Source of the DNA: Acidobacteriota bacterium
Lineage (GTDB): Bacteria > Acidobacteriota > Blastocatellia > RBC074
Assembly: GCA_037439425.1 (NCBI GenBank)
Contig: JBBIWA010000009.1
Coordinates: forward strand, 30,822-94,821
Direction: 5' to 3'
Length of the DNA: 64,000 nt
A model generated the notes under the pieces. It did not search any database. It was given only the letters and a program-made list of their open reading frames with translations, and had not been told where the DNA came from. Position numbers and translations under genes: made by a program. This document shows, one piece after another, positions 903 to 60,718 of this stretch. The stretch's first letter is position 1. Every line of letters begins with the position of its first letter.

Positions 903-1075
903 CTGTATTCTCCTTCCGGCGGCGGATTCAAGTTGTTGTCTGATACTAGAAGACTGCAGCACCTGATGTCAATCAAACTGCCTGGCCTCTGGGAGCGTGG
1001 GTTGTGTGCTTGGTCTTTGGTGAGTGGGTCAGTGATCGAAACTGGCACGCTCTCAAGCGTTCGCTCCTAGGGTCT

Positions 1076-1212
1076 TCTGAGGAGTCTTTCATGTCGCGCT
1101 GCGACGCGGGAGAGACGATCAAACCCTCACGAGCGCAGGCTGATCTAGCGCGCAAGATCTTCAGCCCCAATGAGCACGCAAGGATGCGTGCGCTCCCAGG
1201 GATTTTCGGAGG
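1076..1212 (+). repeat. Type-1 structured repeat, copy A (degenerate left arm)
   Basis: gaggagtctttcATGtcgcgctgcgacgcgggagagacgatcaaaccctcacgagcgc...gagcacgcaaggatgcgtgcgctcccagggattttcggagg. Confidence 0.75.
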
Positions 1213-1337
1213 AATCAGGAAGAGACAAAAGTTTTACTATCCCAGGCAACAGTTTTGCCACATCTGGTTGCCAGCATGAGGCCGCCTCGGCAGCTTACGA
1301 CCTAAACAGCAGAGCGATTATCGAGGAATTAGCTACC

Positions 1338-14785: not shown

Positions 14786-15006
14786 CAGCCCGCGCACGCG
14801 GGCAACAGTATAGAGCCTGGGGTGACTTGCGGATTGCGGATTGCGGGTTTGCCAGGCAGGCGACAGCTTGCTGTGATCGGTTGGGCTCTTTTTTCAGCCC
14901 GCGCAGGCGGGCAACAGCATAGAGCCTGGGGTGCAAACCCCAGGAACGAGCAACCACCAAATCGAGCGAGCCCGCGCACGCGGGCGATAGCACATAGCCT
15001 GGGGTG
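14786..15006. repeat. Three copies of a 39-nt palindromic-core repeat (cagcccgcgcacgcgggcaacagtatagagcctggggtg), with a degenerate fourth upstream. Spacers are 70 and 34 nt. CRISPR-like in appearance but not called CRISPR
   Basis: Repeats at 14786..14824, 14895..14933 and 14968..15006, with a degenerate copy at about 14753. Each carries a gcccgcgcacgcgggc hairpin and is followed by a second small hairpin. Spacing is irregular and no cas genes are in the window. Confidence 0.6.
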
Positions 15007-15063
15007 CAAGCCCCAAAACGAGCTTGATACCTACCAAGTCCTACTTGGCGCACCGGGGGCTCT

Positions 15064-22033: not shown

Positions 22034-23065
22034 ATGAGTGACAGCAGGCTGCGCGACAAGATAGCTCAGGTGGCAGCCGAGCAGCGGCAGGAGCTGGAAG
22101 CAAGCGGCTGGTGGCACAGCATTGACCTCGGCAGTGGACGCATTACCCCGGGCGCGCACAAGCTGGAGGAATTGCGCGACAACTACGCCTGCTTCCGGTT
22201 GCCTGATGACCTGAGAGGCAAACGAGTGCTCGATATCGGCTGCTGGGATGGCTTTTATTCTTTTGAGGCCGAGCGGCACGGCGCTCAAGTCGTGGCGATT
22301 GATGTCCAGCCATCGGAGAAATTCCCTATTGCTCATCGCGCCCTGGGCTCGCGCGTTCAGTTCCACGAAATGAGCGTTTACGAGCTGAGCCGCGATCGTC
22401 TCGGTTCATTCGACATTGTGCTCTTCCTCGGTGTGCTTTATCACCTGCGCCATCCGCTGCTGGCGCTTGAACGCGTCTGTGAAGTGACGCGCGAGGTAGC
22501 AGTGATTGAGACTCATGCTATTGACAATCTCTTTGACACCTCGCATCCGGTGATGGAGTTTTACGAACTGGATGAGCTGGGGGGACAGTACGATAACTGG
22601 TGGGGACCAAACAGCCAATGCCTGCTCCGCATGGCGCGCGCCGCTGGCTTTGCGCGCGTTGAAGTGCTGCGGCGCCAAGCCACGCGCGTGGTGGTCAAAG
22701 CCTATCGCCATTGGGAGGAAAGAGAACTCGAGGCCGCCCCCTCGCTGCGCATCCGCGAGGTGCTCAATGCCATCACCCTTGAGCATCGCTTCCCGCGTCG
22801 TGGCCGCCACGCTTTCCTGGCGCTTCTGGTTGAAGGCTTGCCTGAGGGCGTAACGCGAGAACGGCTACGCGTTGAAGTAGGCGGCTTCGGCATCAATCCG
22901 ATCTATGTTGGCCCTTCAGGCAACCCGGCACACGCGGGCCTGGTGCAAATCAATACGCCAGTGCCGCCGGGATTGGAAGCTGGGGCTGCGAGTGTGCGGG
23001 TGATATACGAAACCAGTCACTCGCACCGATTCGAGATCAGCTTGGTTGAAGGCAGTGAATGGTGA
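22034..23065 (+). CDS. Class I SAM-dependent methyltransferase (TIGR04290-like family) with ~130-aa C-terminal extension
   Basis: [28 protein letters not shown] (motif I) and [35 protein letters not shown]. Start trimmed to ATG 22034 (MSDSRL...) to remove the overlap with the GT4 gene. Confidence 0.8.
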
Positions 23066-23223
23066 TGACCAAAGAAGCCTAAATCCCCGGTTAAGGACGC
23101 GAATCGGACATTTTCCGCAGAGGTAGTTTATGTCGTCACGGACGACGCGAGAGAAATACTGAAGACCCGGAAGCGCAGGCTTGCGAGCGTGCAGGATTTT
23201 CAGTCGAGTTAAGTCGGCACCTG

Positions 23224-33462: not shown

Positions 33463-33492
33463 GTCCCCTGAGGTCTGATTTTCTCCTTGCTC
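33463..33492 (+). repeat. Short fragment related to the type-1b repeat variant (ctgaggtctgattttctcc)
   Basis: Similar to cgcaggtctgattttctgag in the copies at 41432 and 44296. Lies in the pth-rpsF intergenic region. Confidence 0.3.
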
Positions 33493-33540: not shown

Positions 33541-33969
33541 TTGAGAAGCTACGAAGTGCTATTCATCGCGGCGCCGCAAACTACCGATGACGAGTTACAA
33601 AAGATCACTTCGCAACTCCAATCGATTGTCACCGAACAGGGCGGCACCGTTACCAAGGTTGACCAGTGGGGTCGCCGCAAGCTGGCTTATCCCATCAAGA
33701 AATTCGAGGAGGGGATCTACACGATTCTCAATATCGAAGGCACAGGCAGCGAGATCGCTGAGGTAGATCGTCGCCTGCGTGTCACCGATGCTGTGATCCG
33801 TCATCTCGTCGTGCGCACCGATGAGGAGTTGCGCCGTGCCGAGAAATTGCGCGCCAAACGCAAGCCGTTAGCTCATCCCCGTCCGGCGGATGAAGAGCTG
33901 GAGGATTTTGAGCTGGCAGAGATGGAAGATGAAGAGTTTGAGGATGAGGAAGCGGGCTATGAAGAATAG
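33541..33969 (+). CDS. rpsF: 30S ribosomal protein S6 (with acidic C-terminal tail)
   Basis: RSYEVLFIAAPQ...VTKVDQWGRRKLAYPIKK is the S6 pattern. TTG start, with AAGGAGGG 7 nt upstream. Confidence 0.9.
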   Translation: MRSYEVLFIAAPQTTDDELQKITSQLQSIVTEQGGTVTKVDQWGRRKLAYPIKKFEEGIYTILNIEGTGSEIAEVDRRLRVTDAVIRHLVVRTDEELRRAEKLRAKRKPLAHPRPADEELEDFELAEMEDEEFEDEEAGYEE

Positions 33970-34019: not shown

Positions 34020-34268
34020 ATGGCCAAGACTACAGCTAAAGTTCCAGCAGTAAGCGTGGCGCGCCGCCGCCGCAGCTGCCGTCTGTGCGCGGAGCGGATC
34101 GATTATGTTGATTACAAAGATGTGAAGCTGCTGCAAGCCTTCGTGCCAGAGCGAGGCAAAATTATGCCGCGTCGGATCTCTGGCACCTGCGCCCTGCATC
34201 AGCGCAAACTGATGAAAGCGATCAAACGCGCCCGCAACGTTGCGCTGCTACCTTACACTACGGTCTAG
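34020..34268 (+). CDS. rpsR: 30S ribosomal protein S18
   Basis: [58 protein letters not shown]. Confidence 0.9.
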
Positions 34269-34282
34269 CCGATCTACTTATC

Positions 34283-34433
34283 GGAGGAGTCTTTCATGTC
34301 GCGCTGCGACGCGGGAGAAATGATGAAACCCTGGGTACGCACGCTTGCGAGCGTGCTTGGTCTTCGGTAATGGCTTGCTTAACGAAGGTAGGCACGCAAG
34401 GATGCGTGCGTACCCAGGGATTTTCCGCAGGAG
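34283..34433 (+). repeat. Type-1 structured repeat, complete unit B1. It has a 5' module with SD+ATG, about 28-bp palindromic terminal inverted repeats, and a 3' tail cccagggattttccgcaGGAG
   Basis: Sequence: ggaggagtctttcATGtcgcgctgcgacgcgggagaaatgatgaaa CCCTGGGTACGCACGCttgcgaGCGTGC ... GCACGCaaggatGCGTGCGTACCCAGGG attttccgcaggag. The arms are reverse complements of each other, and each arm contains a 6-bp hairpin. Confidence 0.85.
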
Positions 34434-34574
34434 TCATTCAGCTCGCGCTGCGACGCGGGAGAAATGATGAAACCCTGGGTACGCACGCTTGCGAGCGTGC
34501 TTAGTCTGAAGATGAGGGCGCGCTTAATGGAAATAGGCACGGCCGGCGTGCCTACCCAGGATTTTCCGCAGGAG
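34431..34574 (+). repeat. Type-1 structured repeat, unit B2, in direct tandem with B1. Its GGAG tail is the Shine-Dalgarno of rplI
   Basis: Near-identical to B1 (the ATG of the 5' module is mutated to AGC). It ends ...cccaggattttccgcaggagaaacaattATG(rplI). Confidence 0.85.
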
Positions 34575-34582
34575 AAACAATT

Positions 34583-35056
34583 ATGGCGATGATGGAGCTT
34601 TTGCTCTGTGAAGATGTCGAGCATTTGGGGGCGCGTGGAGACCTGGTCAAGGTGCGCGCCGGGTATGGACGCAATTACCTGCTGCCACGCGGGCTGGCTG
34701 TCCAAGCCACCCCATCGAATATCAAACAGATCGAACGGCAACGCCGCGCGCTGCTGAAAAAAGCAGCGGCTGAACGCGCGACCGCAGAGCAGCAGGCGGA
34801 GTTGCTCAAAGAAGTGACGCTGGAATTTGTCCGCAAGGTAGGCGCCCACGGTATCCTTTACGGTTCAGTCACCGCGATGGATATTGCCGAAGAACTCCGG
34901 GCGCGGGGCTACGAAATTGATCGCAAACGCATTCAACTGCCGGAGCCGCTGAAAGAAATCGGCCAGTACCAGGTGCCGATCAAGTTGCACCGTGAAGTCA
35001 TCGCGACTCTCCAGGTAGTGGTCAAGGGCGAAGAGGAGCAGAAGAAGAGCAGATGA
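34583..35056 (+). CDS. rplI: 50S ribosomal protein L9
   Basis: MELLLCEDVEHLGARGDLVKVRAGYGRNYLLPRGLAV is the L9 N-domain. Confidence 0.9.
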   Translation: MAMMELLLCEDVEHLGARGDLVKVRAGYGRNYLLPRGLAVQATPSNIKQIERQRRALLKKAAAERATAEQQAELLKEVTLEFVRKVGAHGILYGSVTAMDIAEELRARGYEIDRKRIQLPEPLKEIGQYQVPIKLHREVIATLQVVVKGEEEQKKSR

Positions 35057-35259
35057 GCAAGCGGTAAAGAGAGCTCCTAGCCCGCTCCCTGGGAGAATTA
35101 TTTCTCCAACCAATCCATCAACATCTACGTCAAGCGCAGGCAGGCTGCTTGTGTGAGAGTTGGCTTCCCGCTTAAGATGAGGGCTGCCGTAATAAGGAAG
35201 GCGACTCAGAGCTCAGATGAAGTCTGAGCTCTGAAGCCCTACTGCCGAAGACAACAGCG

Positions 35260-36627
35260 ATGGCCGGACCAGCCAGCAGCAGAGATCTCACCCTGGAGAA
35301 AGCCCTCCCCAGCAATGTCGAGGCGGAACGTTACATTCTCGGCGCGATCCTGTTGGACAATGCGACGATCAATCAAGCGGCTGAACGGCTCAAACGGGAA
35401 GACTTTTTCCTCGATTCGCACCGTCGCATCTACGACAAGATGCTCTACCTTTACGAGCAGAACCGCGGCATCGATCCGGTCACGCTGCAAGAGGAGTTGC
35501 GCCGCGCGGGCGATCTGGAGGTAGTAGGGGGGCCAGCTTATATCGCAGCCTTGATTGATGGTGTACCGCGCTTCTCCAATATTGACAATTACACGCGGAT
35601 CGTCAAAGGCAAGTCCATGCTGCGCAAGTTGATTATGACCTCTAACCAGATCATGTCGACTTGCTTTGATGATGAAAGCGAACCAGAGGAGATTCTCGAT
35701 CAAGCCGAGCGTGCGATTTTAGCCATTGCCGAAGATCGCATCCGTCAGGGGTTTACTCCGGTCAGCGAGGTGGCTCACCAGCAGCTTGAATACCTCGAAG
35801 AGATCAGCGGACGTACGCAGTTGATTACCGGCCTGGCCACTGGTTTCCGCGATATTGATTTTATGACTTCTGGCTTGCAGCGCGGCGACCTGATCATTAT
35901 CGCGGCCAGACCCTCGCTCGGGAAAACAGCCTTCTCTCTGAACATTGCGCAGAATGCTGCCCTCCGGCCTCAGCCGTTTGGCGAGAAAGCCGTCGTCGCG
36001 ATCTTCTCACTGGAGATGAGCAAGGAATCGCTCGTCCAGCGGCTGCTCTGCTCACAGGCGCGGATTGATTCGCATCGGCTGCGCAGCGGCATGCTGAGTA
36101 AAGATGATTGGCGGCGTCTGGCCACAGCGGTGGGGGAGCTTTCTGAAACCAGAATCTTTCTTGATGATACGCCCGGCATCTCGGTGCTAGAGATGCGCGC
36201 CAAAGCCCGGCGGCTGAAGAACGAGCAGCGCCGCCTCGACTTGCTCATCGTTGATTATCTGCAATTGATGAGCGGGCGCGGGCGCATTGAATCCCGCCAA
36301 CAAGAGGTCTCGCAAATCTCGCGCGATTTGAAGGCCCTGGCCAAGGAACTGGACGTGCCGCTCATTGCGCTGTCCCAGCTCTCACGTGCGCCTGAAACGC
36401 GCACCGGTAATCGCCCCCAGCTCTCAGACCTGAGGGAGTCGGGCTCGATCGAGCAAGACGCCGACGTCGTGATGTTCATCTATCGCGAAGACGCTTATAA
36501 TCCTGAAACGGAAAAACAGAATATCGCCGAGATCATCATCGGCAAACAGCGCAATGGGCCGACGGGTACAGTCGAACTCGTCTTTCTGAAACAGCTCACG
36601 CGCTTTGAGGATAGATATCGAGAGTAA
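35260..36627 (+). CDS. dnaB: Replicative DNA helicase DnaB
   Basis: [28 protein letters not shown]... is the DnaB N-domain. The RecA-like domain carries Walker A SLGKT and LSQLSR. Confidence 0.9.
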
Positions 36628-36708
36628 AGCGCGCGGCAAATAAGGGCATGGAGCAGAGGGCGCAGCGCTCTGTTCTCTACACTTTGATCGCCCATTACCA
36701 AACACCTC

Positions 36709-37845
36709 ATGAGAGAGCCTGACAATCAGCGTCCTACCTGGGCGGAAATCTCACTTCGCGCACTGAGACACAACTATCGCACGATCAAAGACCGCGTGGG
36801 CGAGAAGGTGCAGGTGATGGCAGTGGTCAAAGCCAACGCTTATGGGCACGGTGCGATCGAGTGTGCGCGCGCGCTCGAAGAAGTTGGGGCCGCCTGGTTC
36901 GGCGTGGCGCTGGTCGAAGAAGGGATAGCTCTGCGTCAGGCCGGGATTGTCCGGCCTATCTTCTGCTTGGGTGGGTTCTGGCGTGGCCAGGCCGAACTGA
37001 TTATCGCTCACGATCTCATCCCGGCGCTATTTCTGATAGATGCGGCTGAAGAACTAGAAGCGCGCGCGCGCGCAGCCGGGCGCGAGGTCAAATTTCATCT
37101 CAAAGTGGACACCGGTATGGGGCGGCTTGGTGTGACTTTAGGCGAGCTCGGGGAGTTCGCGCGTGCCCTCAAACGGTTCGGGCATCTCAAGCTTGATGGC
37201 CTGTGGACGCATTTTGCCGAAGCCGATACGCTGGAGTCTGACTATACCGAGATGCAGATTTCACGCTATTGCGAAGCGCTGCGCCTGCTGCGCGAGCTCG
37301 GTTTTACTCCCACCTTCCAGCATCTGGCCGGTAGCGCCGGCATTCATGCTCACCGCAGCGCGTGGGGTAATCTAGTGCGCGCGGGCGCAACGCTTTACGG
37401 TTTGACGCGTGACGTGCTGGCTCCGATTCCAGAACCGTTCGCAGTGCAACCGGTGATGTCTTTGCGCTCACGCATCACTTTTCTCAAGACTGTGCCAGCG
37501 GGGACCTCGATTGGATACGGTCGCACCTTCATCACCGCGCGCGAAAGTCGCATTGCCACACTACCAATTGGCTATGCTGATGGACTTCGGCGCGCGCTCT
37601 CGAATAAAGGCCGTGTGCTGGTGCGCGGCCAGTTAGCACCGATCGCCGGCCGGATAAGCATGGACCTGACCACCATAGACGTGACCGAGGTGGTTGACGT
37701 GGCGCTGGGCGATGAGGTGGTTCTGATTGGCGAGCAGGGCGGGATGAGCATCCGCGCTGAAGATCTCGCGGAGCTCTCCGACACTGTCTCTTACGAAATT
37801 GTGTCTGCTATCTCATCGCGCGTGCCTCGTGTCTACAGAGCTTAA
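36709..37845 (+). CDS. alr: Alanine racemase
   Basis: [11 protein letters not shown] carries the PLP-lysine motif. VPRVY at the C-terminus is typical. Confidence 0.85.
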
Positions 37846-37999
37846 GAAAATGAATGCCTGAAGCCCCTCAGGGGCGGCTACTGTCCATTCTCCACTGTTT
37901 TGCTGTATCAAAAGCGATGGGGAATGGACCGCTTGATAATGGCCGCTCCTGCAACCGCCTCAGCTCAAACATTTTCTTGCAGGCTATATCTGCGGCCCC

Positions 38000-38887
38000 A
38001 TGAGCTTGACCACAGACCTTTGGCCATTACTGAAAGAAACCTTTGAGAAATATCAGAAGGACGAAATCGGACAACTGGGCGCGGCGTTGGCTTACTATGC
38101 GATGTTCTCTCTCTTTCCGCTACTGTTGCTGTTGATTGCCGGGCTGGGATTTGTGCTGCGGTTCTGGAGCACTGCGATCAACGTACAGCAGGAGACTTTG
38201 AATGCCGCTGCGCGCGCTTTCTCGCCGCAGTTCAGTGAGACTCTAGGAGAGGTATTAGCAGGGGTAAAAGCGCAAGCAGGCACGGCCAGCTGGATTGGCG
38301 CGCTCACGCTCTTGATTGGCGCTTCAGGGATCTTTCATCAGCTTAACACCTGTTTCAATAAAATCTGGGCAGTCTCACCAGACCCGGCCTCATCTGGCAT
38401 TATCGGCTTTGTCTTATTCACACTTCGCCAGCGGCTCTTCGCGTTTCTGATCGTGTTGGCGATGGGCTTGCTAGTCCTCGTCTCGCTGATTTTGACTATC
38501 CTGGCGCGGTTGACTTTCAGCCTGCTGATGCCCCTTCCCTACTTCAGCAGCCTGGCAGCAACCGCGCTGGGACTGGTTATCACCCTGGCGCTCAACACAC
38601 TGATCTTCTGTCTGCTCTTCAAGTATCTACCGGAGACCGATGTGCGTTGGGGCGATGTCTGGGGCGGCGCGCTGGCTACGGCCCTGATTTGGGAGATAGC
38701 CAAGCGATTGCTGGCGCTATATCTCGAACGGAGCAGTTACCTGAGCGCCTATGGAGTCGTCGGGATAGTCTTGGTGTTGATGTTCTGGATCTACGCCAGC
38801 AGCCAGATCTTGTTTCTGGGTGCTGAGTTCACCAGCGTCTATGCTCGCAAGTACGGCAGCCGCGCCCCCAGACAGGCTGAAGGATAA
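38000..38887 (+). CDS. YihY/BrkB family inner-membrane protein
   Basis: LAYYAMFSLFPLLLLLIAGLGFVL and about six TM helices match the YihY (ribonuclease BN-like) family pattern. Confidence 0.8.
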   Translation: MSLTTDLWPLLKETFEKYQKDEIGQLGAALAYYAMFSLFPLLLLLIAGLGFVLRFWSTAINVQQETLNAAARAFSPQFSETLGEVLAGVKAQAGTASWIGALTLLIGASGIFHQLNTCFNKIWAVSPDPASSGIIGFVLFTLRQRLFAFLIVLAMGLLVLVSLILTILARLTFSLLMPLPYFSSLAATALGLVITLALNTLIFCLLFKYLPETDVRWGDVWGGALATALIWEIAKRLLALYLERSSYLSAYGVVGIVLVLMFWIYASSQILFLGAEFTSVYARKYGSRAPRQAEG

Positions 38888-39136
38888 GCGAAATACCATC
38901 CCTTAGCAGCTCCTCTCCGACGCAACCTCCGTTCTGGCCGAAAGCTGCATCCGACCAACAAAGGTAGCGGCAATGCCTAAACGGGCGCCTCCCCTTGACA
39001 GAGTAGAGGGAGGCAAGTAGACTTACCGGCCGGTAGGTAATAGAGCTGACTTCCAGGCGACTTGATCACACACCAGGATAGCAACCATCCCATCACGGGC
39101 TGGCTATAGATCAAAACCACATAGGAGGAAACTACG

Positions 39137-40246
39137 ATGAAAGAGTCAGGCAATTGGATCCTAGCCCTGGTCGGCGCCGTGATGGCGCTGATAGGGACCG
39201 TGAGCGCTCAGCAACAAGAAGAGCCTTTCCGTTTCCCTGGAGCACCCTGCAATATGCCCCCTTACCTGCACTGTCCCGACAGAGAGTGCTCAGGGGCTAC
39301 GGTAATCAACCAAGGAAATGTTGTCGAGATGAAGACGCGCCGCACCTATTTTCTCGATTATCCGTGCGATTTGAAGAAGGGTGAGAAGGTTACTTTCATT
39401 CTCAGTCTGCATGGCGGCGGTTCCTACGGGAATTGGCAGCGCCACTACTTCCCACTCCTGGATTATGTGGACAAGTATCGTCTGGTTGTCGCTACCCCGA
39501 ACTCCCCAACGCGGGCCTGGTCTACGGCCGATGATGAATACTTGCAGAACATCGTCAATTTCGTCATCGAGCAGATCGGCAAAGAGAACATCAAGGCCTT
39601 CTGGTTGGCTGGGCATTCGCAGGGCGGCATGACCGCCAACAGGCTCGTGCGGACGGACTTTTTTAAGGACAAAGTAGATGGCTGGCTCAGCCTGTCCGGC
39701 GGTCGTTTGGGCGGGAACCCTGGCCGCAGCGCAACCTTCTCTCCTGTTGGCGCTGGAGCTCCTTCCGCTGGTGCAGCCTCGGCTGGCGCTCCCGGCCGCC
39801 CGGGCAGCGGGGGCAGCAGTGCGATGGCATCAGCAATGGCAGCCCTGCGCGAGCTGCCTGAGGCCGATTTCTCGTTCATCTACACAACGGGCCAGCGCGA
39901 AATGGATGAGAAAGGCCTGCCCGAGAATTCTGACTGGGCCAAGAAATACTCTTGCGGTCCACGGCGTCTGCAAGGGGAGGTTGTGGATACCAAGGCCGGC
40001 TACGTCTATGACAGCACCAGGCTGAATCTATTGCGTCCGGGTTGGGGACTGCTGCCGGCGCCCGGCAAGGCTCAAGTCTTCGTCTATCCTGACTGCAAGG
40101 ACGGCCGAGTCGTGGCTGATGTCGTCCGCCTTGACAAGGGACACACCGAAGGACTCGAACCAAAAGTCACCGAAGAGCTCATCAAGCTGATGCTCTCGGC
40201 AAAAGGTGGCAAGCTTCAACAGGCCCGGTTGGCCCAAGAGAAATAA
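39137..40246 (+). CDS. Secreted alpha/beta-hydrolase, PHB-depolymerase-family esterase-like, with Ala/Gly/Pro-rich linker
   Basis: Signal peptide, then [15 protein letters not shown]...LVVATPNSP...[17 protein letters not shown] (GxSxG), then a low-complexity [23 protein letters not shown] segment. Confidence 0.6.
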
Positions 40247-40650
40247 GTCATCCAGAGCTTGAGCTGGCGACAGCCTCCGGAGCCAGCAGGACGCTCCCCG
40301 ATCCCCGGACCGCGGAAGCTGCGTGAAGCGGTCCAGGGCCTAGTTAATTAAGCAGCGCGGCGCCTGCCGCACGTAAGCGCTCGTTTTTTGACTGGAAACG
40401 AACAGTAGCCAGGACTCGTTAGAGTCGACCCGTTAGGGTGGCTCACCATCTTAAAACGATGATCGAAGATCGCGAGCTTCTATCATCTACCTTCAATCTT
40501 CGTCTATCTGTGGTGAGTAATGTTCACCTCGGCCCGTGTTTTTGGTTACTGACATCTGCCACACTGTCCGTTTACGCGGCCGCAAGTCCTGTTTAATGGC
40601 AGACGACAGAGCCTGGAACTGGTGCCGCCGTTGCAGGGTGTGATGACCCA

Positions 40651-40696
40651 GATTCGGATTTCGGATTTCGGATTTAAATTCGCAATTCGAAATCCC
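40651..40696. repeat. Tandem octamer (ttcggatt x3) followed by aattcgcaattcgaaatcc. Related to the repeat at 17788-17862
   Basis: Seen directly. Forms a ggattt/aaatcc hairpin. Confidence 0.6.
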
Positions 40697-41431
40697 CAAA
40701 CGTAGTTCACCGGCCCGCCGCTGGATCACTGAGCCTCACTTGAGTGTTTTGCGAGAGAAAGGCAGTTATCAAACCGCCAGTTTGATAACTTTCCTTATTC
40801 CTCTCGCGCCGCGCACTCAACACGCATCGCCACCGCACGGCATGAACGCTCCATCTCTTTGCAGTCTTGATTGTCCCTGCCACCAAGCTAGACGACGAAC
40901 CGGCTCTTGTGAAGGAACCACCTAACTCAATCCGCATAAGACTAAATCAGGGCAACAGAGATGGGGGCACCAGGTTTCACGCAAAGGCGCAAAGTTCGAA
41001 GGGCGGTGCCCCAATCTTGCGTGCTTCGACTTATAGCGGTCTTCACTCGGATCAGGAGAGGACCACTTAAGCCTTTGGCTCTCCACCATGGCTGAAAAGA
41101 GTGTTATTCTGCTCCCGGCCAGAAAGAATAAGAGCGGTTAGTGGCTGGCGCCGGGTTCTGCTCCACAAGCTCGCCACGAAAGCGGTAGCGCGTTTGACTG
41201 GGCTGCTGGCTGATGCGGTGTGGGGCCGGAAAAAGAAGTCAAGGCCCTCGCCAATTCGGTCGCTGCGGCCTACTTGCGTCTGGGCCCGGGGAGGCGCCGC
41301 CTCCCAGCACAAAGCCTTGATCAAACGCGCTCACTGGGCTTTAATCCGCTGCAGCCTCGGGCAGCGAGCTTCGTTCATCAAGCCTGATTGCCTGAAGGCT
41401 GCGGAACCTGTTTTCTGAAGAGTTGTCCCGT

Positions 41432-41497
41432 GCCACTGGCGCAGCGCGGGAGAAAGGATGAAAGGTCCGCAGGTCTGATTTTCTGAGGGGGCTGTTA
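41432..41497 (+). repeat. Type-1b repeat variant fragment (gcagcgcgggagaaaggatgaaaggtccgcaggtctgattttctgag)
   Basis: Matches the reverse complement of 44296..44345 and resembles the 5' module of type-1 units. Confidence 0.65.
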
Positions 41498-41685
41498 TTC
41501 CTGAACCAATCACCAGAGGGAAATTCGGAGCTGTGGTCGGGTTGGCCTTGTTGCTGGATGTAGTAGTTTACCTCTACACCGAAAGCGCTGGCGCTGCTGC
41601 GCGCGACGCTGGTAGGAATAGCCGCGATCTGGTTCCTACGTCACTACAGCCAGGGCGATAATTAGCAAACTCCGGTTAGTACGAG

Positions 41686-44292
41686 ATGAGGCTCAGAAAG
41701 AAAGAACTTCTCCTCTTCGTTCTCTGGGTGAGCGGGGCGATCTTCGCGGTGAAGCTCAGCCACGCGACGCTCACCAGACCAGCGTCACTGCTTGCCATTC
41801 ACGAGATTCAGGGCAGCGGCCCTACTTCTCCTCTCCTCGGTCAAACAGTCACGACTAGCGGTATTGTCACGGGCCTTAAAAGCAACGGCTTTTTCATTCA
41901 AACGCCGGAAGCTAACGTGGATGGCAATCCGAACACCTCTGAAGGCATCTTCGTCTTCACCTCCAGCGCGCCACCTGCGGCCGCCGTGATCGGCAATCTC
42001 GTGACAGTGACCGGCACGGTCCAGGAGTTTGTTCCGGCATCCGATCCTTCCAGTCCCCCTTTAACTGAGCTTGCTGGCTCAATCACCGTGACGGTGGTGT
42101 CAACTGGCAACGCGCTGCCAGCCCCGATCAGGCTCACTGCGGCTGAGACCAGCCCGGCTGGTTCCCTCGAGCAACTAGAAAAGTACGAAGGCATGCGTGT
42201 GCGCGTAGACTCGCTCACTGTGATTTCGCCAACTCAGGGTTTCGTCAATGAAACCACTGCCACCGGGTCTTCAAATGGCATCTTCTTCGGCGTGATCACT
42301 GGTGTAGCAAGGCCCTTTCGTGAGCCGGGGATTGAAGCGCCCGAGGCGATTCCTTCATCGCCCTGTTGCCTTGCCCGCTTTGATGGGAATCCGGAACGGC
42401 TGCGCGTTGACAGCGACGCGCAGCCCGGTGCCCTCAGGCTTGAAGTAACCAGCGGAGCCATTGTCACCAATCTGACGGGGCTGCTCGATTACGGCTCGCG
42501 CGCTTACACCATCCTGCCCGATGCCGCAACGCCACCAACGGTCACAGGCCAAACCAGCGCCACTGCTGTTCCTGCTCCCACGCCAGATGAGTTCACCGTG
42601 GCCTCGTTCAATCTGCAGCGCTTCTTTGACGATCAAAATGATCCGGCGCTCAGCGAGCCAGTGCTGACCACGACGGCATTCAATAACCGGCTGAACAAAG
42701 CTTCGCTGGCGATTCGCCAGATCTTGCGCTCACCTGACATCATCGGCGTTCAGGAGGTTGAAAACCTGACCACGCTGCAAGCCATCGCCAGCAAAATCAA
42801 CAATGATGCCGTCGCAGCCGGTGATCTCAATCCGAACTATCAGGCTTATCTCAACGAAGGCAATGATCCCGGTGGCATTGATGTTGGCTTCCTAGTTAAA
42901 GGCGCGCGCGTCACTGTCGCTGAGGTGACGCAGGTAGGCAAGACTGAAACCTTCACCAATCCCCACACCGGGATGCCAGAAACAACTCATGACCGGCCGC
43001 CGCTCATCTTGCGCGCCATGATCGAGTCGCCGAGCGGCGCGCCATTCCCAATCACAGTTATCGTCAATCATCTGCGCTCGCTTTCAGGCATCAATGACAC
43101 GGCCGATGGCGCTCGCGTGCGCGCCAAGCGGCGCGCGCAAGCTGAGTTTCTGGCCAGGCTGATCCAGTCGCGGCAAGCGGCGGACCCGAATGAGCACATA
43201 ATTTCTCTGGGCGATTACAATGCCTTTCAGTTCAATGACGGTTATGTAGATGTCATCGGCGCGATCAAAGGACTGCCGGCACCGGCCGAGACGGTGCTGC
43301 TTGCGAGCAGCGATCTGGTTGGTCCCGATCTCACCGATCTGGTCGAGCAGGTCAATGCCGAGCAGCGATATTCCTACCTTTTCGGCGGCAACGCCCAGGT
43401 GCTGGATCATATTCTGATCACAGCGAATCTGCTCACCCGAGTAAGCCGCATCAGTTTTGCGCGCAGCAATGCGGACTTCCCTGAATCTATGCGCGGCGAT
43501 GCGCGGCGACCTGAGCGCCTCTCGGATCACGACGCGCCCGTGGCATATTTCAAGTTCACTCCGGCAGTTGACTTTGTAGCGAGCGTCTCAGCCGCTAATT
43601 ACCTGGGTACAGAGCTAGCGAGTGAAGCTATCGTTGCAGCGTTTGGCACAGGGTTAGCCACTGCCACCGAAGCCGCGACCGGACTGCCGCTTCCGACCGT
43701 GCTGGCTGGCACAACCGTGAAAGTGACTGACCGCAGGGGTGCAGAACGCTTAGCTCCGCTTTTTTTCGTCTCTCCCACTCAGGTCAATTACCTGATCCCG
43801 CCAGGAACCGAGGTGGGAACGGCCACATTTAGCATCACCACCAGTGAGGGGAAGACTACGACAGGCACGATCCAGATCGCCTCTGTAGCTCCAGGGCTCT
43901 TCACTGCCAATGCTGATGGACAAGGCACAGCCGCTGCTTACCTGCTGCGCGTCAAAGCTGATAACTCGCAGACGACCGAACCGGTCGCGCAATACAGCGC
44001 CGTGCAGAACAAGTTTGTCGCTGTGCCGATAGACCTAGGACCGGAAACCGATCAGGTGTTCCTCGTCCTCTTCGGCACGGGGCTGCGCTTTCGCAGCGAT
44101 CTTTCAGCCGTGCTTGCGGGCATTGGCGGCGTGAAAGCAGAGGTGCTCTATGCTGGAGCGCAAGGCAGTTTCGTAGGCCTGGATCAGATCAATCTGCCTA
44201 TTCCACGCAGCTTGATCGGGCGTGGTGAAGTGGATGTGGTATTGACGGTGGATGGCAAAACGGCCAATGTGGTCAAGATCCATATCAAGTGA
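41686..44292 (+). CDS. ExeM/NucH-family extracellular endonuclease (lamin-tail-like N-domain plus endonuclease/exonuclease/phosphatase domain) with C-terminal Solibacter/Acidobacteria-type domain (TIGR03437-like)
   Basis: [56 protein letters not shown] is the ExeM/NucH N-terminus. [14 protein letters not shown]...IIGVQEVEN...SDHDAPV is the EEP domain. The C-terminus ...[49 protein letters not shown] matches what I recall of TIGR03437. Confidence 0.75.
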
Positions 44293-44295
44293 AGG

Positions 44296-44470
44296 CCTTT
44301 TCTCGGAAAATCAGACCTGCGGACTTTTCCTCCTTTCTCCCACGCTGCGCGGGCAGCATGCAGAGCTCCTCGGAAGAGCCTGGGAGCGCACGCATCCTTG
44401 CGTGCTGCGGCTTCGATCAGCGGGCTGCTGCCTGAAACCTGGCACGCTAGAAGCGCGCGCTCCCAGAAGC
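44296..44470 (-). repeat. Composite type-1 repeat (one full unit plus a type-1b partial unit) in reverse orientation, between convergent genes
   Basis: The reverse complement of 44378..44470 aligns with unit C2 (cctgggt..gcacgcttctagcgtgc...gcacgcaaggatgcgtgcgctcccagg). The reverse complement of 44296..44378 aligns with the copy at 41432. Confidence 0.8.
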
Positions 44471-44555
44471 CTTTATTGTTTTCTCCCGCCTGGCACAAGC
44501 GACCCGAACGACTCCGCCGGAATGTCACGCAAACTCGCCGCTTGCGCCCTCACTC

Positions 44556-55433: not shown

Positions 55434-55700
55434 GGATTTCCCTTTGCTTACCCGTTCTGGAGTAGGAAGAGTTTAACCCGATTAGGAAGCCGGATCAACG
55501 AAGCTGCAAACACCAACTGGCCTATCAACCTTAAGCCCCCGCTCTTTACTTGCAGCACGCAGGCTTGGTGATATAATCTGGCGCCTCACAGCAATTTCGT
55601 CTCTCAATCCTATGTTTTATTCGATCACTCCTAGCTGAGCTATGGTGAGGAGCCACATTTTTAGGGGAGCACTTTTACCGCAGTTTGATGATCTTCAACG

Positions 55701-55795
55701 CCTGGGCAGGCACGTTTGCGAGCGTGTCAGAGTTCGGACAGCAACCCGCTGGCCGCGGGTACGCAAGGATGCGTGTACTCCCAGGGATTTCCTAA
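55701..55795 (+). repeat. Type-1 structured repeat, unit C1 (TIR-to-TIR portion)
   Basis: cctgggcaggcacgtttgcgagcgtg ... gggtacgcaaggatgcgtgtactcccagggatttcc. Confidence 0.8.
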
Positions 55796-55900
55796 GCCTG
55801 GGTAACGCACGCTTCTAGCGTGCTTGCTCTGCGGTAATAGCCTACTCGACGAAGACAGGCACGCAAGGATGCGTGCGCTCCCAGGATTTTCCGAAGGAGG
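55796..55900 (+). repeat. Type-1 structured repeat, unit C2. Its tail ccgaaGGAGGaaacc supplies the RBS of the TonB-dependent receptor gene
   Basis: agcctgggtaacgcacgcttctagcgtgc...aggcacgcaaggatgcgtgcgctcccaggattttccgaaggaggaaaccATG. Confidence 0.8.
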
Positions 55901-59166: not shown

Positions 59167-59417
59167 CCCTTTCCACCTGACTCCTCCATAAGTCGCGCGG
59201 GCATCTCAGGGGATGCTCGCGCGACCAATTCTCTTCATCTGACAAGCCCGCCCGAGCTGCTCTCCCTTGACCTAAAGACGCTCCCTACCGTTCGTGGTAC
59301 TGATTCGGGGAGCAAGAGGCTTCCTCCAGGTCGCGGTACTTCGGGCAGCGATCAGTACTGCGACCGGTAGGGGACGGTCTCTTTTCCCCGATTTCTTAAA
59401 CTCTTATAGCGCGCCAG

Positions 59418-59498
59418 CTCTTGGGCACCGCGCGTGCTGATGGAAGCCAAGCACGCAAGGATGCGTGCGCTCCCAGGGTTTTTCTGAGGAGCAAGGGG
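59418..59498 (+). repeat. Type-1 structured repeat, shortened copy D
   Basis: ctcttgggcaccgcgcgtgc-tgatggaagccaa-gcacgcaaggatgcgtgcgctcccagggtttttctgaggag. Confidence 0.7.
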
Positions 59499-59507
59499 TA
59501 GAGTAGC

Positions 59508-59541
59508 CAGACCTCAGACCTCAGACCTCAGATTTCAGACC
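59508..59541. repeat. Tandem octamer cagacctc x3.5
   Basis: cagacctcagacctcagacctcagatttcagacc, read directly. Confidence 0.7.
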
Positions 59542-59704
59542 AAAGAAGTGGAGGAGTGCAACGAGTGAGCGAGTGAAGGGGTGGAAGAGTAAGAGAAGTG
59601 GATCGCTGGCTCGGTGGAGAAGCAGAGTGCAGGAGTACAAAAACAGTACGAATCCGAAATGAAGCCGATCTCCAGTTGATGGATGTCTGGCCGAACCATC
59701 ATAG

Positions 59705-59712
59705 TGTATAAT
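59705..59712 (+). promoter_or_regulatory. Extended -10 element TGTATAAT 10 nt upstream of the DUF433 ATG (near-leaderless transcript)
   Basis: tagTGtATAATggtgtgcactATG. The hexamer overlaps the first in-frame ATG (59711), which argues for ATG 59723 as the true start. Confidence 0.45.
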
Positions 59713-59722
59713 GGTGTGCACT

Positions 59723-60061
59723 ATGAGCACGCTTGAGACCAAACAAGATGTACCTTTGACGCTCTGGGAAGATGGCTCGATCCGCATCACAGGCTCGCGG
59801 GTCACGTTGGAGGCCATCGTCCACCAATTCAAACTCGGCGCGACGGCGGAACAGATTCAGGATAGCTTTCCCTCGCTTACGTTGCAGCAGATCTACGGGG
59901 CGATCTTCTACTACTTGGCCAATACCGAAGCCGTAGAAAAATATCTCAGCCAACGAGAAGAGGCCGCCGCCGAGGGACGACGCTTCATCGAGAGCCATTT
60001 TGATACCACGACGTTGCGGGCGCGGATCCGCGCGCGGCGCGACCAACTGGTGAAGAAATAA
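59723..60061 (+). CDS. DUF433 domain protein (putative antitoxin-like partner)
   Basis: ITGSRVTLEAIVHQFKLGATAEQIQDSFPSLTLQQIYGAIFYYLAN fits the DUF433 pattern. Confidence 0.7.
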   Translation: MSTLETKQDVPLTLWEDGSIRITGSRVTLEAIVHQFKLGATAEQIQDSFPSLTLQQIYGAIFYYLANTEAVEKYLSQREEAAAEGRRFIESHFDTTTLRARIRARRDQLVKK

Positions 60062-60091
60062 AGTCCCGGGTTGGCGCTCGAATCTGCCGCG

Positions 60092-60439
60092 ATGCGCTTT
60101 CTGACAGACGAAAATTTCAATCATCGCATCCTGCGCGGCTTGAAGCTTCGGGTTCCCAGTCTCGATTATATCGTGGCCCAAGAGACGGAGCTTCAAGGAA
60201 CCAAAGACCCAGTAATGCTCGCCGGGGCGGCAGAGCAAGGCCGGATTCTCCTCACTCACGACGTCAGCACCGTTCCGAAATATGCTTACGAGCGCATCGC
60301 TGCTGGCCAGATCATGCCTGGGGTGATCATCGTCCCGGAGACACTGCCTATTGGGCAGGCCATTGAAGAGCTCGTCACCGTCATCGAGTGCTCTGAGCAG
60401 AGCGAATACGAGAATCAAGTCGTCCATCTTCCGTTGTGA
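60092..60439 (+). CDS. DUF5615 (PIN-like) domain protein (putative toxin-like partner)
   Basis: MRFLTDENFNHRILRGLKL...GRILLTHDVS fits DUF5615. It lies 30 nt downstream of the DUF433 gene. Confidence 0.7.
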   Translation: MRFLTDENFNHRILRGLKLRVPSLDYIVAQETELQGTKDPVMLAGAAEQGRILLTHDVSTVPKYAYERIAAGQIMPGVIIVPETLPIGQAIEELVTVIECSEQSEYENQVVHLPL

Positions 60440-60469
60440 AATGGCGGCTCAATGAGATGAAACCTTTAA

Positions 60470-60592
60470 GAGGGAGGAGCGCGAGAAAGGGGAGAGGGAG
60501 AAAGGGAGAGGGGGAGCAGGGGAGCAGCACGATTGCGGATTGAAGGGAAGGGGGAAGGGAAAAAGGGAGAAAGGGGAAAAGGACTCTCTCTG
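60470..60592 (+). repeat. About 120-nt GA-rich polypurine tract with more than 20 GGA/AGGGA motifs
   Basis: agggaggagcgcgagaaaggggagagggagaaagggagagggggagcaggggagcagc...gaagggaagggggaagggaaaaagggagaaaggggaaaagga. Minus-strand ORFs here are just translations of the pyrimidine strand. Confidence 0.8.
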
Positions 60593-60640
60593 GTTTTCTC
60601 CGGGAAGCGCCCCCGAATACAGTGGCGCCATGATCTGCCG

Positions 60641-60682
60641 AGTCATTCATGTCGCGCTGCAACGCGCGGAGGGAGGTCGTTA
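60641..60682 (+). repeat. Type-1 structured repeat, 5'-module fragment E (gagtcattcATGtcgcgctgcaacgcgcggagggagg)
   Basis: Matches the 5' module of units A and B1, including the SD+ATG start MSRC(N/D)A. It lies 35 nt upstream of the CRTAC1 gene SD. Confidence 0.65.
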
Positions 60683-60718
60683 TCTGCCTGAGTTTTAAAA
60701 TTCGCGGAGGAGGCTCAG

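What the first reader, a model, noticed from the sequence alone, without database searches (positions are those of the whole stretch)
34283..34576. Novel-looking family of structured, TIR-bounded intergenic repeats. A tandem dimer is inserted inside the rpsF-rpsR-rplI ribosomal operon and donates the rplI ribosome-binding site
At least 8 copies or fragments of one element occur in this 64-kb window. They lie at 1076-1212, 34283-34433, 34431-34574, 55701-55900 (two units), 59418-59498, 60641-60682, 44296-44470 (reverse) and 41432-41497, with a weak fragment at 33463. A full unit is about 150 nt and has three parts. The 5' module reads GGAGGAGTCTTTCATGTCGCGCTGCGACGCGGGAGAAATGATGAAA. The left arm CCCTGGGTACGCACGC-ttgcga-GCGTGC is almost the exact reverse complement of the right arm GCACGC-aaggat-GCGTGCGTACCCAGGG. 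The 3' tail ATTTTCCGCAGGAG ends in a Shine-Dalgarno that is reused by the downstream gene. Each 28-bp arm is itself a local hairpin, so the RNA or DNA can fold two ways: two local hairpins, or one 16-bp long-range stem. That mutually exclusive folding looks like an attenuator or riboswitch. Here two units sit head-to-tail in the 314-bp rpsR-rplI spacer, and the operon lacks the ssb/priB gene found in some rpsF operons. The last GGAG of unit 2 lies 9 nt before the rplI ATG. Translation of an essential r-protein gene therefore depends on sequence supplied by the repeat. That argues the element is a functional 5' UTR module rather than inert junk. The element does not match the classic REP/BIME, ERIC or Correia elements as I remember them.
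Basis: seen in the sequence. Interest (0 to 1): 0.85.

Follow-up and report, generated by a model that had tools for sequence, protein, structure and literature searches.

The report
REP-type mobile palindromes rebuilding an RBS
The repeat in the ribosomal-protein operon is a real but ordinary kind of bacterial selfish DNA (REP/REPIN palindromes, mobilised by a RayT-type transposase in related genomes); it landed right after the gene's own ribosome-binding site and ends in a copy of that site, so it is not a riboswitch-like regulator.

Summary
A 285-nt insert of two head-to-tail 144-nt units fills the rpsR-rplI spacer, and about ten related copies or fragments lie in the 64-kb window.

The interpretation mostly fails. 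The two "arms" are REP hairpins in inverted orientation, which is a REPIN. The same arm sequence occurs in at least 76 stretches of DNA, mostly from Blastocatellia/Pyrinomonadaceae MAGs. In one MAG it flanks both sides of a Y1/RayT transposase gene.

A strain whose L9 protein is 96% identical to the window's has an empty site: tagCCAATCTACTTATCGGAGGAG|AAACAAGTatg. The operon therefore already had its own Shine-Dalgarno (SD) sequence 8 nt before the ATG. The insert sits exactly after it and ends in ...CAGGAG, which restores the SD at the same spacing.

Other copies lie between convergent genes or antisense to their neighbours. No Rfam family matches.

Two features go beyond a textbook REPIN:
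- A ~40-nt linker whose small hairpin keeps pairing while its sequence changes. In relatives this linker carries different palindromes.
- An excess of array ends sitting at SD distance from start codons (4 of 9 sites). This suggests insertion next to GGAG.

Verdict: a new member of the REP/REPIN/BIME kind, possibly with SD-directed, SD-regenerating insertion. Interest is moderate.

The parts
34020..34268 (+). rpsR (ribosomal protein S18), the gene upstream of the insert
   Evidence: ORF. The orthologue carries Pfam Ribosomal_S18.
34269..34289 (+). Native part of the rpsR-rplI spacer, ending in the native Shine-Dalgarno GGAGGAG (34283-34289)
   Evidence: Matches, apart from one base, the first 21 nt of the 29-nt empty-site spacer of L199 (CCAATCTACTTATCGGAGGAG).
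34290..34574 (+). 285-nt insert: two head-to-tail composite units of 144 and 141 nt
   Evidence: Absent from L199. Present in diverged form at the same two junctions in L198. The 144-nt period is (D1).
34290..34328 (+).
   Evidence: The hairpin stem differs in sequence but still pairs in other copies.
34329..34419 (+). REPIN 1: a left REP (CCCTGGGTACGCACGC-TTGCGA-GCGTGC), a 35-nt centre and a right REP (GCACGC-AAGGAT-GCGTGCGTACCCAGGG)
   Evidence: I19. Folds as one long hairpin at -59.4 kcal/mol. The right REP is the sequence found in at least 76 DNA stretches, mostly from Acidobacteriota MAGs.
34420..34433 (+). Tail 1, ATTTTCCGCAGGAG. Its GGAG is the junction to unit 2.
34434..34472 (+). Linker 2 (the ATG is mutated to AGC)
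34473..34560 (+). REPIN 2. The right REP has diverged (GCACG-GCCG-GCGTGCCTACCCAGG).
   Evidence: (-45.7 kcal/mol).
34561..34574 (+). Tail 2, ATTTTCCGCAGGAG. The GGAG at 34571-34574 is the SD now proximal to rplI.
34575..34582 (+). Native 8-nt SD-to-start spacer AAACAATT
   Evidence: Equals AAACAAGT of the empty site in L199 with one substitution.
34583..35056 (+). rplI (ribosomal protein L9)
   Evidence: Pfam Ribosomal_L9_N/C.
1072..1214 (+). Full composite unit, not next to a start codon
   Evidence: Gene context.
23107..23205 (+). Tail, linker (hairpin GTCGTC-ACG-GACGAC) and left REP only.
   Evidence: (D1).
41409..41497 (+). Linker plus tail without REP arms, about 190 nt upstream of the next ORF start
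44296..44526 (-). Composite unit followed by a second REP-less linker and tail, lying between convergent genes
55693..55899 (+). Two REP doublets plus a tail. The tail's GGAGG lies 6 nt before the ATG (55906) of a TonB-dependent-receptor-like gene.
59406..59494 (+). Centre, right REP and tail fragment, lying between convergent genes
60634..60671 (+). Linker fragment in a divergent intergenic region

Best explanation
The repeats are a Blastocatellia (Acidobacteriota) family of REP sequences arranged as REPINs, which are two inverted REP hairpins that can pair into one long hairpin. A conserved ~40-nt linker and a 14-nt tail join them into BIME-like head-to-tail arrays. They are non-autonomous mobile DNA. 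I infer that they are moved as single-stranded DNA by a RayT-type Y1 (HUH) transposase encoded once elsewhere in the genome.

At rplI a two-unit array sits exactly between the operon's own Shine-Dalgarno sequence (GGAGGAG) and the 8-nt spacer before the ATG. Every unit ends in ...CCGNAGGAG. So the insertion leaves the old SD stranded 285 nt upstream and puts a new GGAG at the original distance from the ATG. This probably makes the insertion tolerable.

Shown:
- repeat family membership
- REPIN folding
- RayT flanked by the same REP in relatives
- presence/absence polymorphism with exact junctions
- extragenic placement that is not specific to 5' UTRs

Inferred:
- mobilisation by RayT in this particular genome
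- preferential insertion next to GGAG, with new units also able to insert after the terminal GGAG of a resident unit to give tandem arrays
- any effect on expression. Known REP biology suggests mRNA 3'-end protection for rpsF-rpsR and some reduction of read-through into rplI.
For: REP and REPIN identity:
Most are Blastocatellia, Pyrinomonadaceae and other Acidobacteriota MAGs.
- 23 plus/minus pairs, from about 21 doublets, have the form CCTGGGAGCGCACGCATCCTTGCGTGC...GCACGCAAGGATGCGTGCGCTCCCAGG with spacers of 9-98 nt. Tandem arrays also occur.
- In these genomes only unit positions ~45-143 (arm, centre, arm) are conserved.

RayT association:
- The ORF at L026 3501-4097 is flanked by two such REPINs (3333-3466 and 4111-4248).
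- It scores 24.3 bits against Pfam Y1_Tnp (gathering 23) and 75.6 bits against NCBIfam REP_Tyr_transpos (E 3.5e-21, cutoff 80).
- A 67%-identical homologue lies next to the REP in L064.
- 3023 homologues were found. Several are named 'REP element-mobilizing transposase RayT' by JGI.
- RayT flanks in L206 and L208 keep a GGAGCGC foot, and L208 also keeps the AAGGAT loop with compensatory stem changes.

Empty site:
- L198 and L199 are 97% identical to each other and about 91% identical to the window. They encode the same L9 protein.
- L199 has a 29-nt spacer, CCAATCTACTTATCGGAGGAG|AAACAAGT.
- The window and L198 carry two-unit inserts at exactly that point.
- More distant relatives L200 and L202 have GGAG plus 8 nt before the ATG and no element.

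Placement:
- REP clusters lie in 35 co-directional, 17 convergent and 7 divergent intergenic regions. This is the 3'-end bias I recall for REPs.
- Window copies lie between convergent genes or antisense to neighbours.

Structure and databases:
- The folds are long hairpins with z = -6.7 and -7.4.
- No Rfam family matches.
- The Logan assembly of the same DNA breaks inside the repeat.

Dynamic arrays:
- At the orthologous TonB-receptor-like gene, the window and L204 carry different arrays that both end at the SD.
- This fits the BIME excision, insertion and amplification model of Ton-Hoang et al. 2012 (PMC3333891).

SD association:
- 4 of 9 independent array ends sit 5-13 nt before a start codon: rplI, the gene at 55906, L162 and L118.
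- The probability is 1.2e-5 if placement in intergenic DNA were random, and 0.024 if any intergenic GGAG were a target.
Against: - No RayT gene is in the 64-kb window (tblastn). The rest of this genome could not be read, so the cognate transposase is inferred from other genomes.
- Only one clean empty/filled pair exists.
- The junction is ambiguous over the shared AGGAG. A 5-bp target-site duplication or microhomology-mediated gain or loss would look the same.
- The conserved foot is GGAG(C), not the GTAG of characterised REPs.
- The L026 transposase is just below NCBIfam's curated RayT cut-off.
- The linker is not found in most genomes that carry the REP. In relatives it is joined to other palindromes. 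So the linker and the REP may be two separate elements, and the role of the linker is unexplained.
- The array at 55693 has no GGAG at its left edge.
- The insert in L198 is only about 55-60% identical to the window's while the flanks are 91% identical. Common descent with precise loss in L199 cannot be separated from independent insertions.
Confidence: 0.8

Rival explanations
1. The unit is a functional cis-acting 5' UTR RNA, an attenuator- or riboswitch-like switch between two local hairpins and one long stem. It controls rplI and other downstream genes and supplies their RBS.
For: - The fold is very stable and could adopt alternative structures.
- The tail GGAG lies at SD distance from real starts at rplI, the gene at 55906, L162 and L118.
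- The linker hairpin shows compensatory changes.
Against: - The element is absent from the orthologous rplI leader in L199, L200 and L202, which have their own SD at the same 8-nt spacing.
- Copies lie between convergent genes and antisense to neighbours.
- The downstream genes are unrelated: L9, a TonB-type receptor and secreted proteins.
- No Rfam match was found.
- The minimum-free-energy fold is simply the REPIN hairpin.
- The same arms flank a transposase in relatives.
Confidence: 0.04
2. The unit is a classical MITE moved by a DDE transposase. The arms are terminal inverted repeats, and AGGAG is a 5-bp target-site duplication made by staggered cuts.
For: - The filled site has AGGAG at both junctions, while the empty site has it once.
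- The arms are inverted repeats.
Against: - The inverted arms are internal. The linker lies outside the left arm and the tail outside the right arm, so the unit ends are not inverted repeats.
- Every copy carries the same GGAG at its end, which does not fit a site-dependent duplication.
- Each arm is itself a hairpin with a conserved foot, as in REPs.
- The only transposase found next to these arms is a Y1/RayT. No DDE transposase with these ends was seen in 76 loci.
Confidence: 0.08
3. The identity is the same (a REP/BIME-like repeat), but the rplI array is kept by selection for a host function. It could act as an intercistronic mRNA stabiliser or partial terminator that sets the S6/S18 to L9 (and DnaB) expression ratio.
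For: - Two lineages about 91% identical in sequence (the window and L198) both keep a two-unit array at this site, although the array sequences have diverged.
- REPs are reported to protect upstream mRNA and modulate 3' UTRs in E. coli (literature listed; my own knowledge of malE-malF).
- A terminator-like hairpin with a T-rich tail occurs at 34339-34356.
Against: - L199, 97% identical to L198, does without the array.
- The terminator and promoter scans are at background level.
- No expression data are available.
Confidence: 0.15

Closest known systems
REPINs and their RAYT transposases (Bertels & Rainey 2011, PMC3116915; RAREFAN preprint 10.1101/2022.05.22.493013)
   Same: - Two inverted REP hairpins separated by a short spacer fold into one long hairpin.
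- There are many extragenic copies.
- In relatives, a Y1 transposase gene is flanked by the same REPINs.
- Assemblies break at the copies.
   Different: - The foot is GGAG(C), not GTAG.
- The host phylum is Acidobacteriota (Blastocatellia); I found no paper on REPINs there.
- In this lineage the REPIN is embedded in a unit with a polar linker and tail.
- The cognate RayT of this genome was not seen.
E. coli BIMEs and the REPtron (Ton-Hoang et al. 2012, PMC3333891)
   Same: - REPs in alternating orientation are joined by recurring linker motifs.
- Arrays are tandem and differ between strains at orthologous sites.
- The transposase is flanked by REPs.
- The proposed excision, insertion and amplification through linker cleavage sites fits the variable arrays seen here.
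   Different: - The linker is longer (~40 nt plus a 14-nt tail), has its own covarying hairpin and contains two SD-plus-ATG look-alikes.
- The same linker is combined with at least three unrelated palindromes in relatives.
- Array ends coincide with SD sequences.
IS200/IS605-family ends and their non-autonomous derivatives (IS608, ISDra2; PATE-like elements)
   Same: - There is a subterminal hairpin near each end.
- Insertion appears to lie 3' of a fixed tetranucleotide that is also the last four bases of the element.
- No variable duplication is seen.
- Absence in a near-identical strain is precise.
- 8 of 10 polar units lie on one strand.
   Different: - No tnpA or tnpB lies inside any copy.
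- The left and right hairpins are unrelated in sequence.
- Target specificity rests on one empty site plus junction statistics.
Other bacterial small repeats (Correia/NEMIS, ERIC, RUP, Stenotrophomonas SMAG)
   Same: They are short structured intergenic repeats that can be co-transcribed and alter expression of neighbouring genes.
   Different: - No sequence similarity was found.
- Those with TIRs have TIRs at the element ends plus duplications.
- None is known to me to regenerate an SD at its insertion point.

Membership tests
REP / REPIN | Short (20-40 nt) imperfect palindrome present in many extragenic copies | tested here: met
   - 6 right arms in 64 kb against 0 expected.
- At least 76 DNA stretches, mostly from Acidobacteriota MAGs.
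- 59 of 68 classifiable clusters are intergenic.
REP / REPIN | Two REPs in inverted orientation separated by a short spacer, able to form one long hairpin | tested here: met
   - (I19).
- 23 plus/minus pairs, from about 21 doublets, with spacers of 9-98 nt.
- Minimum-free-energy folds.
REP / REPIN | Conserved tetranucleotide 5' of the hairpin foot (GTAG in characterised families; PMC3333891, PMC3733652) | tested here: inconclusive
   A conserved foot exists, but it is GGAG(C)/GGAGCGC rather than GTAG. The window's left arms are degenerate (GGGTAC, GGGCAG).
REP / REPIN | A RAYT (Y1 HUH transposase) gene flanked by the same REPs (REPtron) | tested here: met
   - Met in related genomes only.
- L026 scores 24.3 against Y1_Tnp (gathering 23) and 75.6 against REP_Tyr_transpos (cutoff 80), and is flanked by two REPINs.
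- Supporting examples are L064 and L206/L208.
- No RayT lies in the window, and the rest of this genome was not available.
REP / REPIN | Hundreds of copies per genome | not testable with these tools
   Only 64 kb of this genome is available. The density is about one copy per 7 kb.
BIME | Mosaic of REPs in alternating orientation with recurring linker motifs, often tandemly amplified and variable between strains | tested here: met
   - 144-nt tandem dimer.
- Linker copies.
- Different arrays at orthologous sites.
BIME | Binding of IHF, DNA gyrase or Pol I | not testable with these tools
   This needs biochemistry.
IS200/IS605-type non-autonomous element | Insertion 3' of a fixed tetra- or pentanucleotide without target duplication, with precise excision | tested here: inconclusive
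   - One empty site is consistent but is ambiguous over AGGAG.
- All 5' junctions read (G)GAG|.
- The array at 55693 lacks a left GGAG.
IS200/IS605-type non-autonomous element | Subterminal hairpins at both ends recognised as single-stranded DNA | tested here: inconclusive
   Hairpins are present. The linker stem varies as GTCGC/GCGAC, GTCGTC/GACGAC, CGAGTT(C)/(G)AACTCG and GCTGC/GCAGC. Recognition by a transposase was not tested.
Cis-regulatory leader RNA (riboswitch, attenuator, r-protein leader) | Conserved in the orthologous 5' UTR across relatives and in sense orientation to the regulated gene | tested here: not met
   - Absent in L199, L200 and L202.
- Other copies are antisense or between convergent genes.
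Cis-regulatory leader RNA (riboswitch, attenuator, r-protein leader) | Match to a curated RNA family | tested here: not met
   - At gathering threshold Rfam finds only a tRNA.
- In E-value mode the best hit is a miRNA model at E = 0.11.
Classical MITE | Inverted repeats at the element termini and a site-dependent target duplication | tested here: not met
   The unit ends are TCWTTCA... and ...CCGNAGGAG, which are not inverted. The inverted arms are internal, and the same GGAG occurs at every junction.

The most novel reading that the evidence does not exclude
The composite unit (linker with hairpin, then palindrome, then tail ending in GGAG) is a Y1-transposase-mobilised element whose target is the Shine-Dalgarno core GGAG. 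It inserts immediately 3' of an SD and carries a replacement SD as its last bases. It can therefore colonise the few nucleotides between the RBS and the start codon of any gene, even ribosomal-protein genes, without abolishing translation. It can also stack on itself to form arrays. The linker would act as a shared chassis that has swapped its palindrome at least three times.
Probability: 0.35. Interest if true: 0.6.

Novelty: new member of a known kind. Interest (0 to 1): 0.4.

Why it matters
The result turns an apparent riboswitch-like leader in a ribosomal operon into an identified class of selfish DNA. That prevents a false regulatory annotation.

It also documents a REP/REPIN-RayT system in Blastocatellia. 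This is a soil phylum where such repeats fragment metagenome assemblies: the Logan contig ends inside this repeat.

If the SD-directed, SD-regenerating insertion is confirmed, it would show how a mobile element can sit inside translation-initiation regions harmlessly. It would also give a natural system for asking how a large hairpin placed directly upstream of an SD affects translation and mRNA stability.

Tried and rejected
- **Rfam.** The gathering-threshold scan and the permissive scan gave nothing meaningful.
- **Small-peptide reading of the linker (GGAG-N6-ATG).** The ATG is ACG or AGC in many copies, and the reading frames are neither conserved nor of similar length. Rejected.
- **CRISPR-like reading of the 39-nt array in L040.** The whole 39 nt repeats with no unique spacers. 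Rejected.
- **Promoter and terminator scan of the spacer.** Results are at background level.
- **Clustering ORFs next to REPs to find a recurrent neighbour.** Nothing recurrent appeared. RayT was found instead with an HUH/Y-motif filter combined with a 'flanked on both sides' filter.
- **Metagenome scan with the linker seed GCGGGAGAAANGATGAAA.** About 116 of 120 loci were chance matches, many at real gene starts because the seed looks like SD plus ATG plus AAA. Only L118, L143, L162 and L168 were true relatives.
- **Searching for the linker in the 76 REP-bearing loci.** Absent except for a weak copy in L033.
- **GC skew to define the replication strand.** Inconclusive.
- **Look-up of the window protein 22406-22810 to reach the orthologue of the 23107 copy.** Not on record. 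A coordinate error cost.
- **REP-only elements in other genomes.** They show no strong SD association: roughly 8-10 of 122 outward REP ends abut a start. The SD association is therefore specific to the tailed composite.
Full report
**1. What is in the sequence**

The region reads rpsF (33541-33969), rpsR (34020-34268), a 314-nt spacer, rplI (34583-35056) and dnaB (35260-36627). The spacer has four parts:
- 21 nt of unique sequence ending in GGAGGAG (34269-34289)
- unit 1 (34290-34433, 144 nt)
- unit 2 (34434-34574, 141 nt)
- AAACAATT, followed by the ATG

Each unit has three parts:
- a ~39-nt linker: TCWTTCA, a small hairpin, then GCGGGAGAAATGATGAAA
- a ~90-nt pair of inverted arms
- a 14-nt tail, ATTTTCCGCAGGAG

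The two units are 94% identical over their first 82 nt (D1).

The family is far beyond chance. The right arm occurs 6 times against 0 expected, and the linker 3 times against 0 expected.

**2. The arms are REP sequences arranged as REPINs**

Most come from Blastocatellia, Pyrinomonadaceae and other Acidobacteriota MAGs. In those genomes the sequence typically occurs as an inverted doublet, CCTGGGAGCGCACGCATCCTTGCGTGC ... GCACGCAAGGATGCGTGCGCTCCCAGG, with spacers of 9-98 nt. Sometimes it forms tandem runs.

Only the arm-centre-arm part of the window's unit is conserved there. The linker and tail are not.

The predicted fold of each unit is one long hairpin (-59 and -46 kcal/mol). The spacer has z = -6.7 as RNA, and one unit has z = -7.4 as DNA. 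The 'two mutually exclusive folds' that suggested a riboswitch are simply what any REP doublet can do.

Across 68 classifiable REP clusters, 35 lie between co-directional genes, 17 between convergent genes, 7 between divergent genes and 9 inside probably spurious ORFs. This is the 3'-end bias I recall for REPs.

**3. A RayT transposase is flanked by the same REP in relatives**

I screened ORFs in the fetched loci for HUH and tyrosine motifs and for REPs on both sides. This found L026 3501-4097, from Acidobacteriota MAG JANODL010000057.
- It scores above Pfam's gathering threshold for Y1_Tnp (24.3 against 23).
- It scores 75.6 bits (E 3.5e-21) against NCBIfam 'REP-associated tyrosine transposase', just under the cut-off of 80.
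- Complete REPINs with the window's arm sequence lie at 3333-3466 and 4111-4248.
- A 67%-identical homologue sits beside the REP in a Pyrinomonadales MAG, L064.

The family has 3023 members at E ≤ 1e-10. Several are labelled by JGI as 'REP element-mobilizing transposase RayT', and most lie on very short contigs, as expected next to repeats.

Two further RayT loci are flanked by variant REPs that keep the GGAGCGC foot. One of them, L208, also keeps the AAGGAT loop while changing both sides of the stem (GCACGC/GCGTGC to GCCCGC/GCGGGC).

This is the REPtron arrangement described for E. coli (PMC3333891). The window itself contains no RayT, so the cognate enzyme of this genome is inferred.

**4. 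The empty site**

The closest L9 homologue (96% identity) is encoded on two contigs that are 97% identical to each other and about 91% identical to the window. The two contigs differ at this site:
- L199 (GCA_053490555.1) has a 29-nt rpsR-rplI spacer: tagCCAATCTACTTATCGGAGGAG|AAACAAGTatg.
- L198 carries a 257-nt two-unit insert at exactly the marked point.
- The window carries its 285-nt insert at the same point.

More distant relatives (L200, L202; 80% L9 identity) have unrelated short spacers. These also place GGAG 8 nt before the ATG.

Three conclusions follow:
- The operon had its own SD.
- That SD survives at 34283-34289.
- The insert ends in ...CAGGAG, so a GGAG again lies 8 nt from the ATG.

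It is evidence for how the element inserts and is tolerated, not for a host function.

The junction is ambiguous over the shared AGGAG. It cannot by itself separate three possibilities: a fixed-target insertion without duplication (IS200/IS605 style), a 5-bp duplication, or microhomology-mediated gain or loss.

The L198 insert is only about 55-60% identical to the window's, and its first unit carries a different palindrome. I cannot tell whether one old insertion was precisely lost in L199 or the site was hit twice.

**5. Not a dedicated 5' UTR module**

In the window, only two tails abut start codons: rplI and the TonB-receptor-like gene at 55906. The other copies are placed as follows:
- 44296-44526 and 59406-59494 lie between convergent genes.
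- 23107-23205 is antisense between two minus-strand genes.
- 1072-1214 and 41409-41497 are far from any start.

Rfam finds nothing. A consensus scan finds no promoter and only background terminator-like sites.

**6. What goes beyond a textbook REPIN**

(a) *The linker is a conserved, polar module.*
- A metagenome scan with its 3' half mostly returned chance matches at real gene starts, because the seed resembles SD plus ATG plus AAA.
- Four contigs (L118, L143, L162, L168) carry true linkers.
- There the linker reads TTTTCCGAGGAG-TCATTCACG-hairpin-GCGGGAGAAACGATGAAA and is followed by a different palindrome (CGTGGGACAAGATGGCATCTTGTCCCACG) and then the tail again.
- L162 has both palindrome types in one array. 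L204 and L198 show further combinations.
- The linker hairpin keeps pairing while its sequence changes: GTCGC/GCGAC, GTCGTC/GACGAC, CGAGTT(C)/(G)AACTCG and GCTGC/GCAGC.
Arrays are [tail-linker-palindrome]n-tail.

(b) *Array ends coincide with SDs more often than expected.*
- 4 of 9 independent ends lie 5-13 nt before a start: rplI, the gene at 55906, L162 and L118.
- P = 1.2e-5 for random intergenic placement. P = 0.024 if any intergenic GGAG were equally likely.
- All 5' junctions read (G)GAG|.
- REP-only elements in other genomes do not show this. About 8-10 of 122 ends abut a start.

(c) *Arrays at orthologous sites differ between the window and its about-91%-identical relatives but still end at the SD*.

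Together these fit the excision, insertion and amplification model proposed for BIMEs, with cleavage sites in linkers (PMC3333891). They suggest a preference for GGAG, and the terminal GGAG of a resident unit would serve as the next target. This step is inferred. It rests on one clean empty site and small numbers, and the array at 55693 has no GGAG at its left edge.

**7. Likely consequence at rplI (inferred, not tested)**

Two hairpins of -46 to -59 kcal/mol between rpsR and rplI would be expected, by analogy with intercistronic REPs in E. coli, to protect the upstream rpsF-rpsR message from 3' exonucleases. They might also lower read-through or translation of rplI. The second hairpin ends 14 nt before the SD core, so the SD itself is predicted to be largely unpaired in the centroid structure. 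L199 shows that the operon functions without the insert.

**8. Novelty and verdict**

REP, REPIN and BIME elements and RayT transposases are well known. RayT genes in these MAGs are already auto-annotated. I found no paper describing REPINs in Blastocatellia. Acidobacterial Y1 transposases associated with inverted repeats have been noted (PMC3733652, PMC6006769).

The finding is therefore a new member of a known kind, with a GGAG rather than GTAG foot. It has one possibly new property: SD-adjacent, SD-regenerating insertion by a linker 'chassis' that carries interchangeable palindromes.

- Interest: 0.4
- Confidence in the REPIN/BIME-RayT identification: about 0.8
- Confidence in GGAG targeting: about 0.35-0.5

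Noticed in passing
window 39087-44511: About 5.4 kb (an abhydrolase and an 868-aa Exo_endo_phos protein at 41686-44292) is absent from the about-91%-identical relatives L198 and L199, between BrkB and the TonB-dependent receptor. Element copies at 41409-41497 and 44296-44526 bracket the extra gene.
   Followed up: partly
window 59224-60718: A 1.5-kb segment with a 242-aa ORF (59699-60427, minus strand, no Pfam hit) replaces about 125 nt in relative L204. Element fragments at 59406-59494 and 60634-60671 flank it.
   Followed up: partly
window 4639-4894 and 5203-5316: There are four tandem units of 58-66 nt (CTCAATTCCAGATGCCACGAGCTTGCCTCGTGGAG...) with an internal hairpin, and a nearby pair of 38-nt repeats. 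The inter-repeat segments are nearly identical, so this is a tandem repeat and not a CRISPR array.
   Followed up: no
window 14787-15015: Three copies of another palindromic repeat, AGCCCGCGCACGCGGGCAACAG...GAGCCTGGGGTG, at 73-109-nt spacing. This is a second REP-like family.
   Followed up: no
window 59505-59540; also 33463-33480, 41465-41480, 44300-44320: A (CAGACCT)n heptamer run lies next to one copy. Its role is unexplained.
   Followed up: no
L200/L201 10783-14922: Relatives with 80% L9 identity encode a 1379-aa DnaB carrying two inteins (Intein_splicing plus LAGLIDADG). The window's DnaB (455 aa) has none.
   Followed up: no
L118 600-830: The GTGGGACAAGAT-type palindrome is split by a nested insert of about 215 nt. 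The insert carries GCTCCGTTAGGAGCG-type palindromes, so one repeat is inserted inside another.
   Followed up: no
L204 4125-4237 and L198 9775-9800: A further palindrome family, GGGCGAAGCGGTCCGTTTCGCCC / GGCAAAGCGGTCCGCTTTGCC, occurs downstream of the TonB-like gene and inside the L198 rplI array.
   Followed up: no
window 34464-34592: A 42-codon ORF starts at the linker's ATGATG and runs through unit 2. It ends in TGA overlapping the rplI ATGATG (ATGA overlap). Equivalent ORFs are not conserved in other copies, so I judge it fortuitous.
   Followed up: partly
L077 (Logan SRR11582143) = window 34486-40304: A public short-read assembly of the same DNA breaks inside unit 2 and again at 40304. 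These repeats fragment assemblies.
   Followed up: partly
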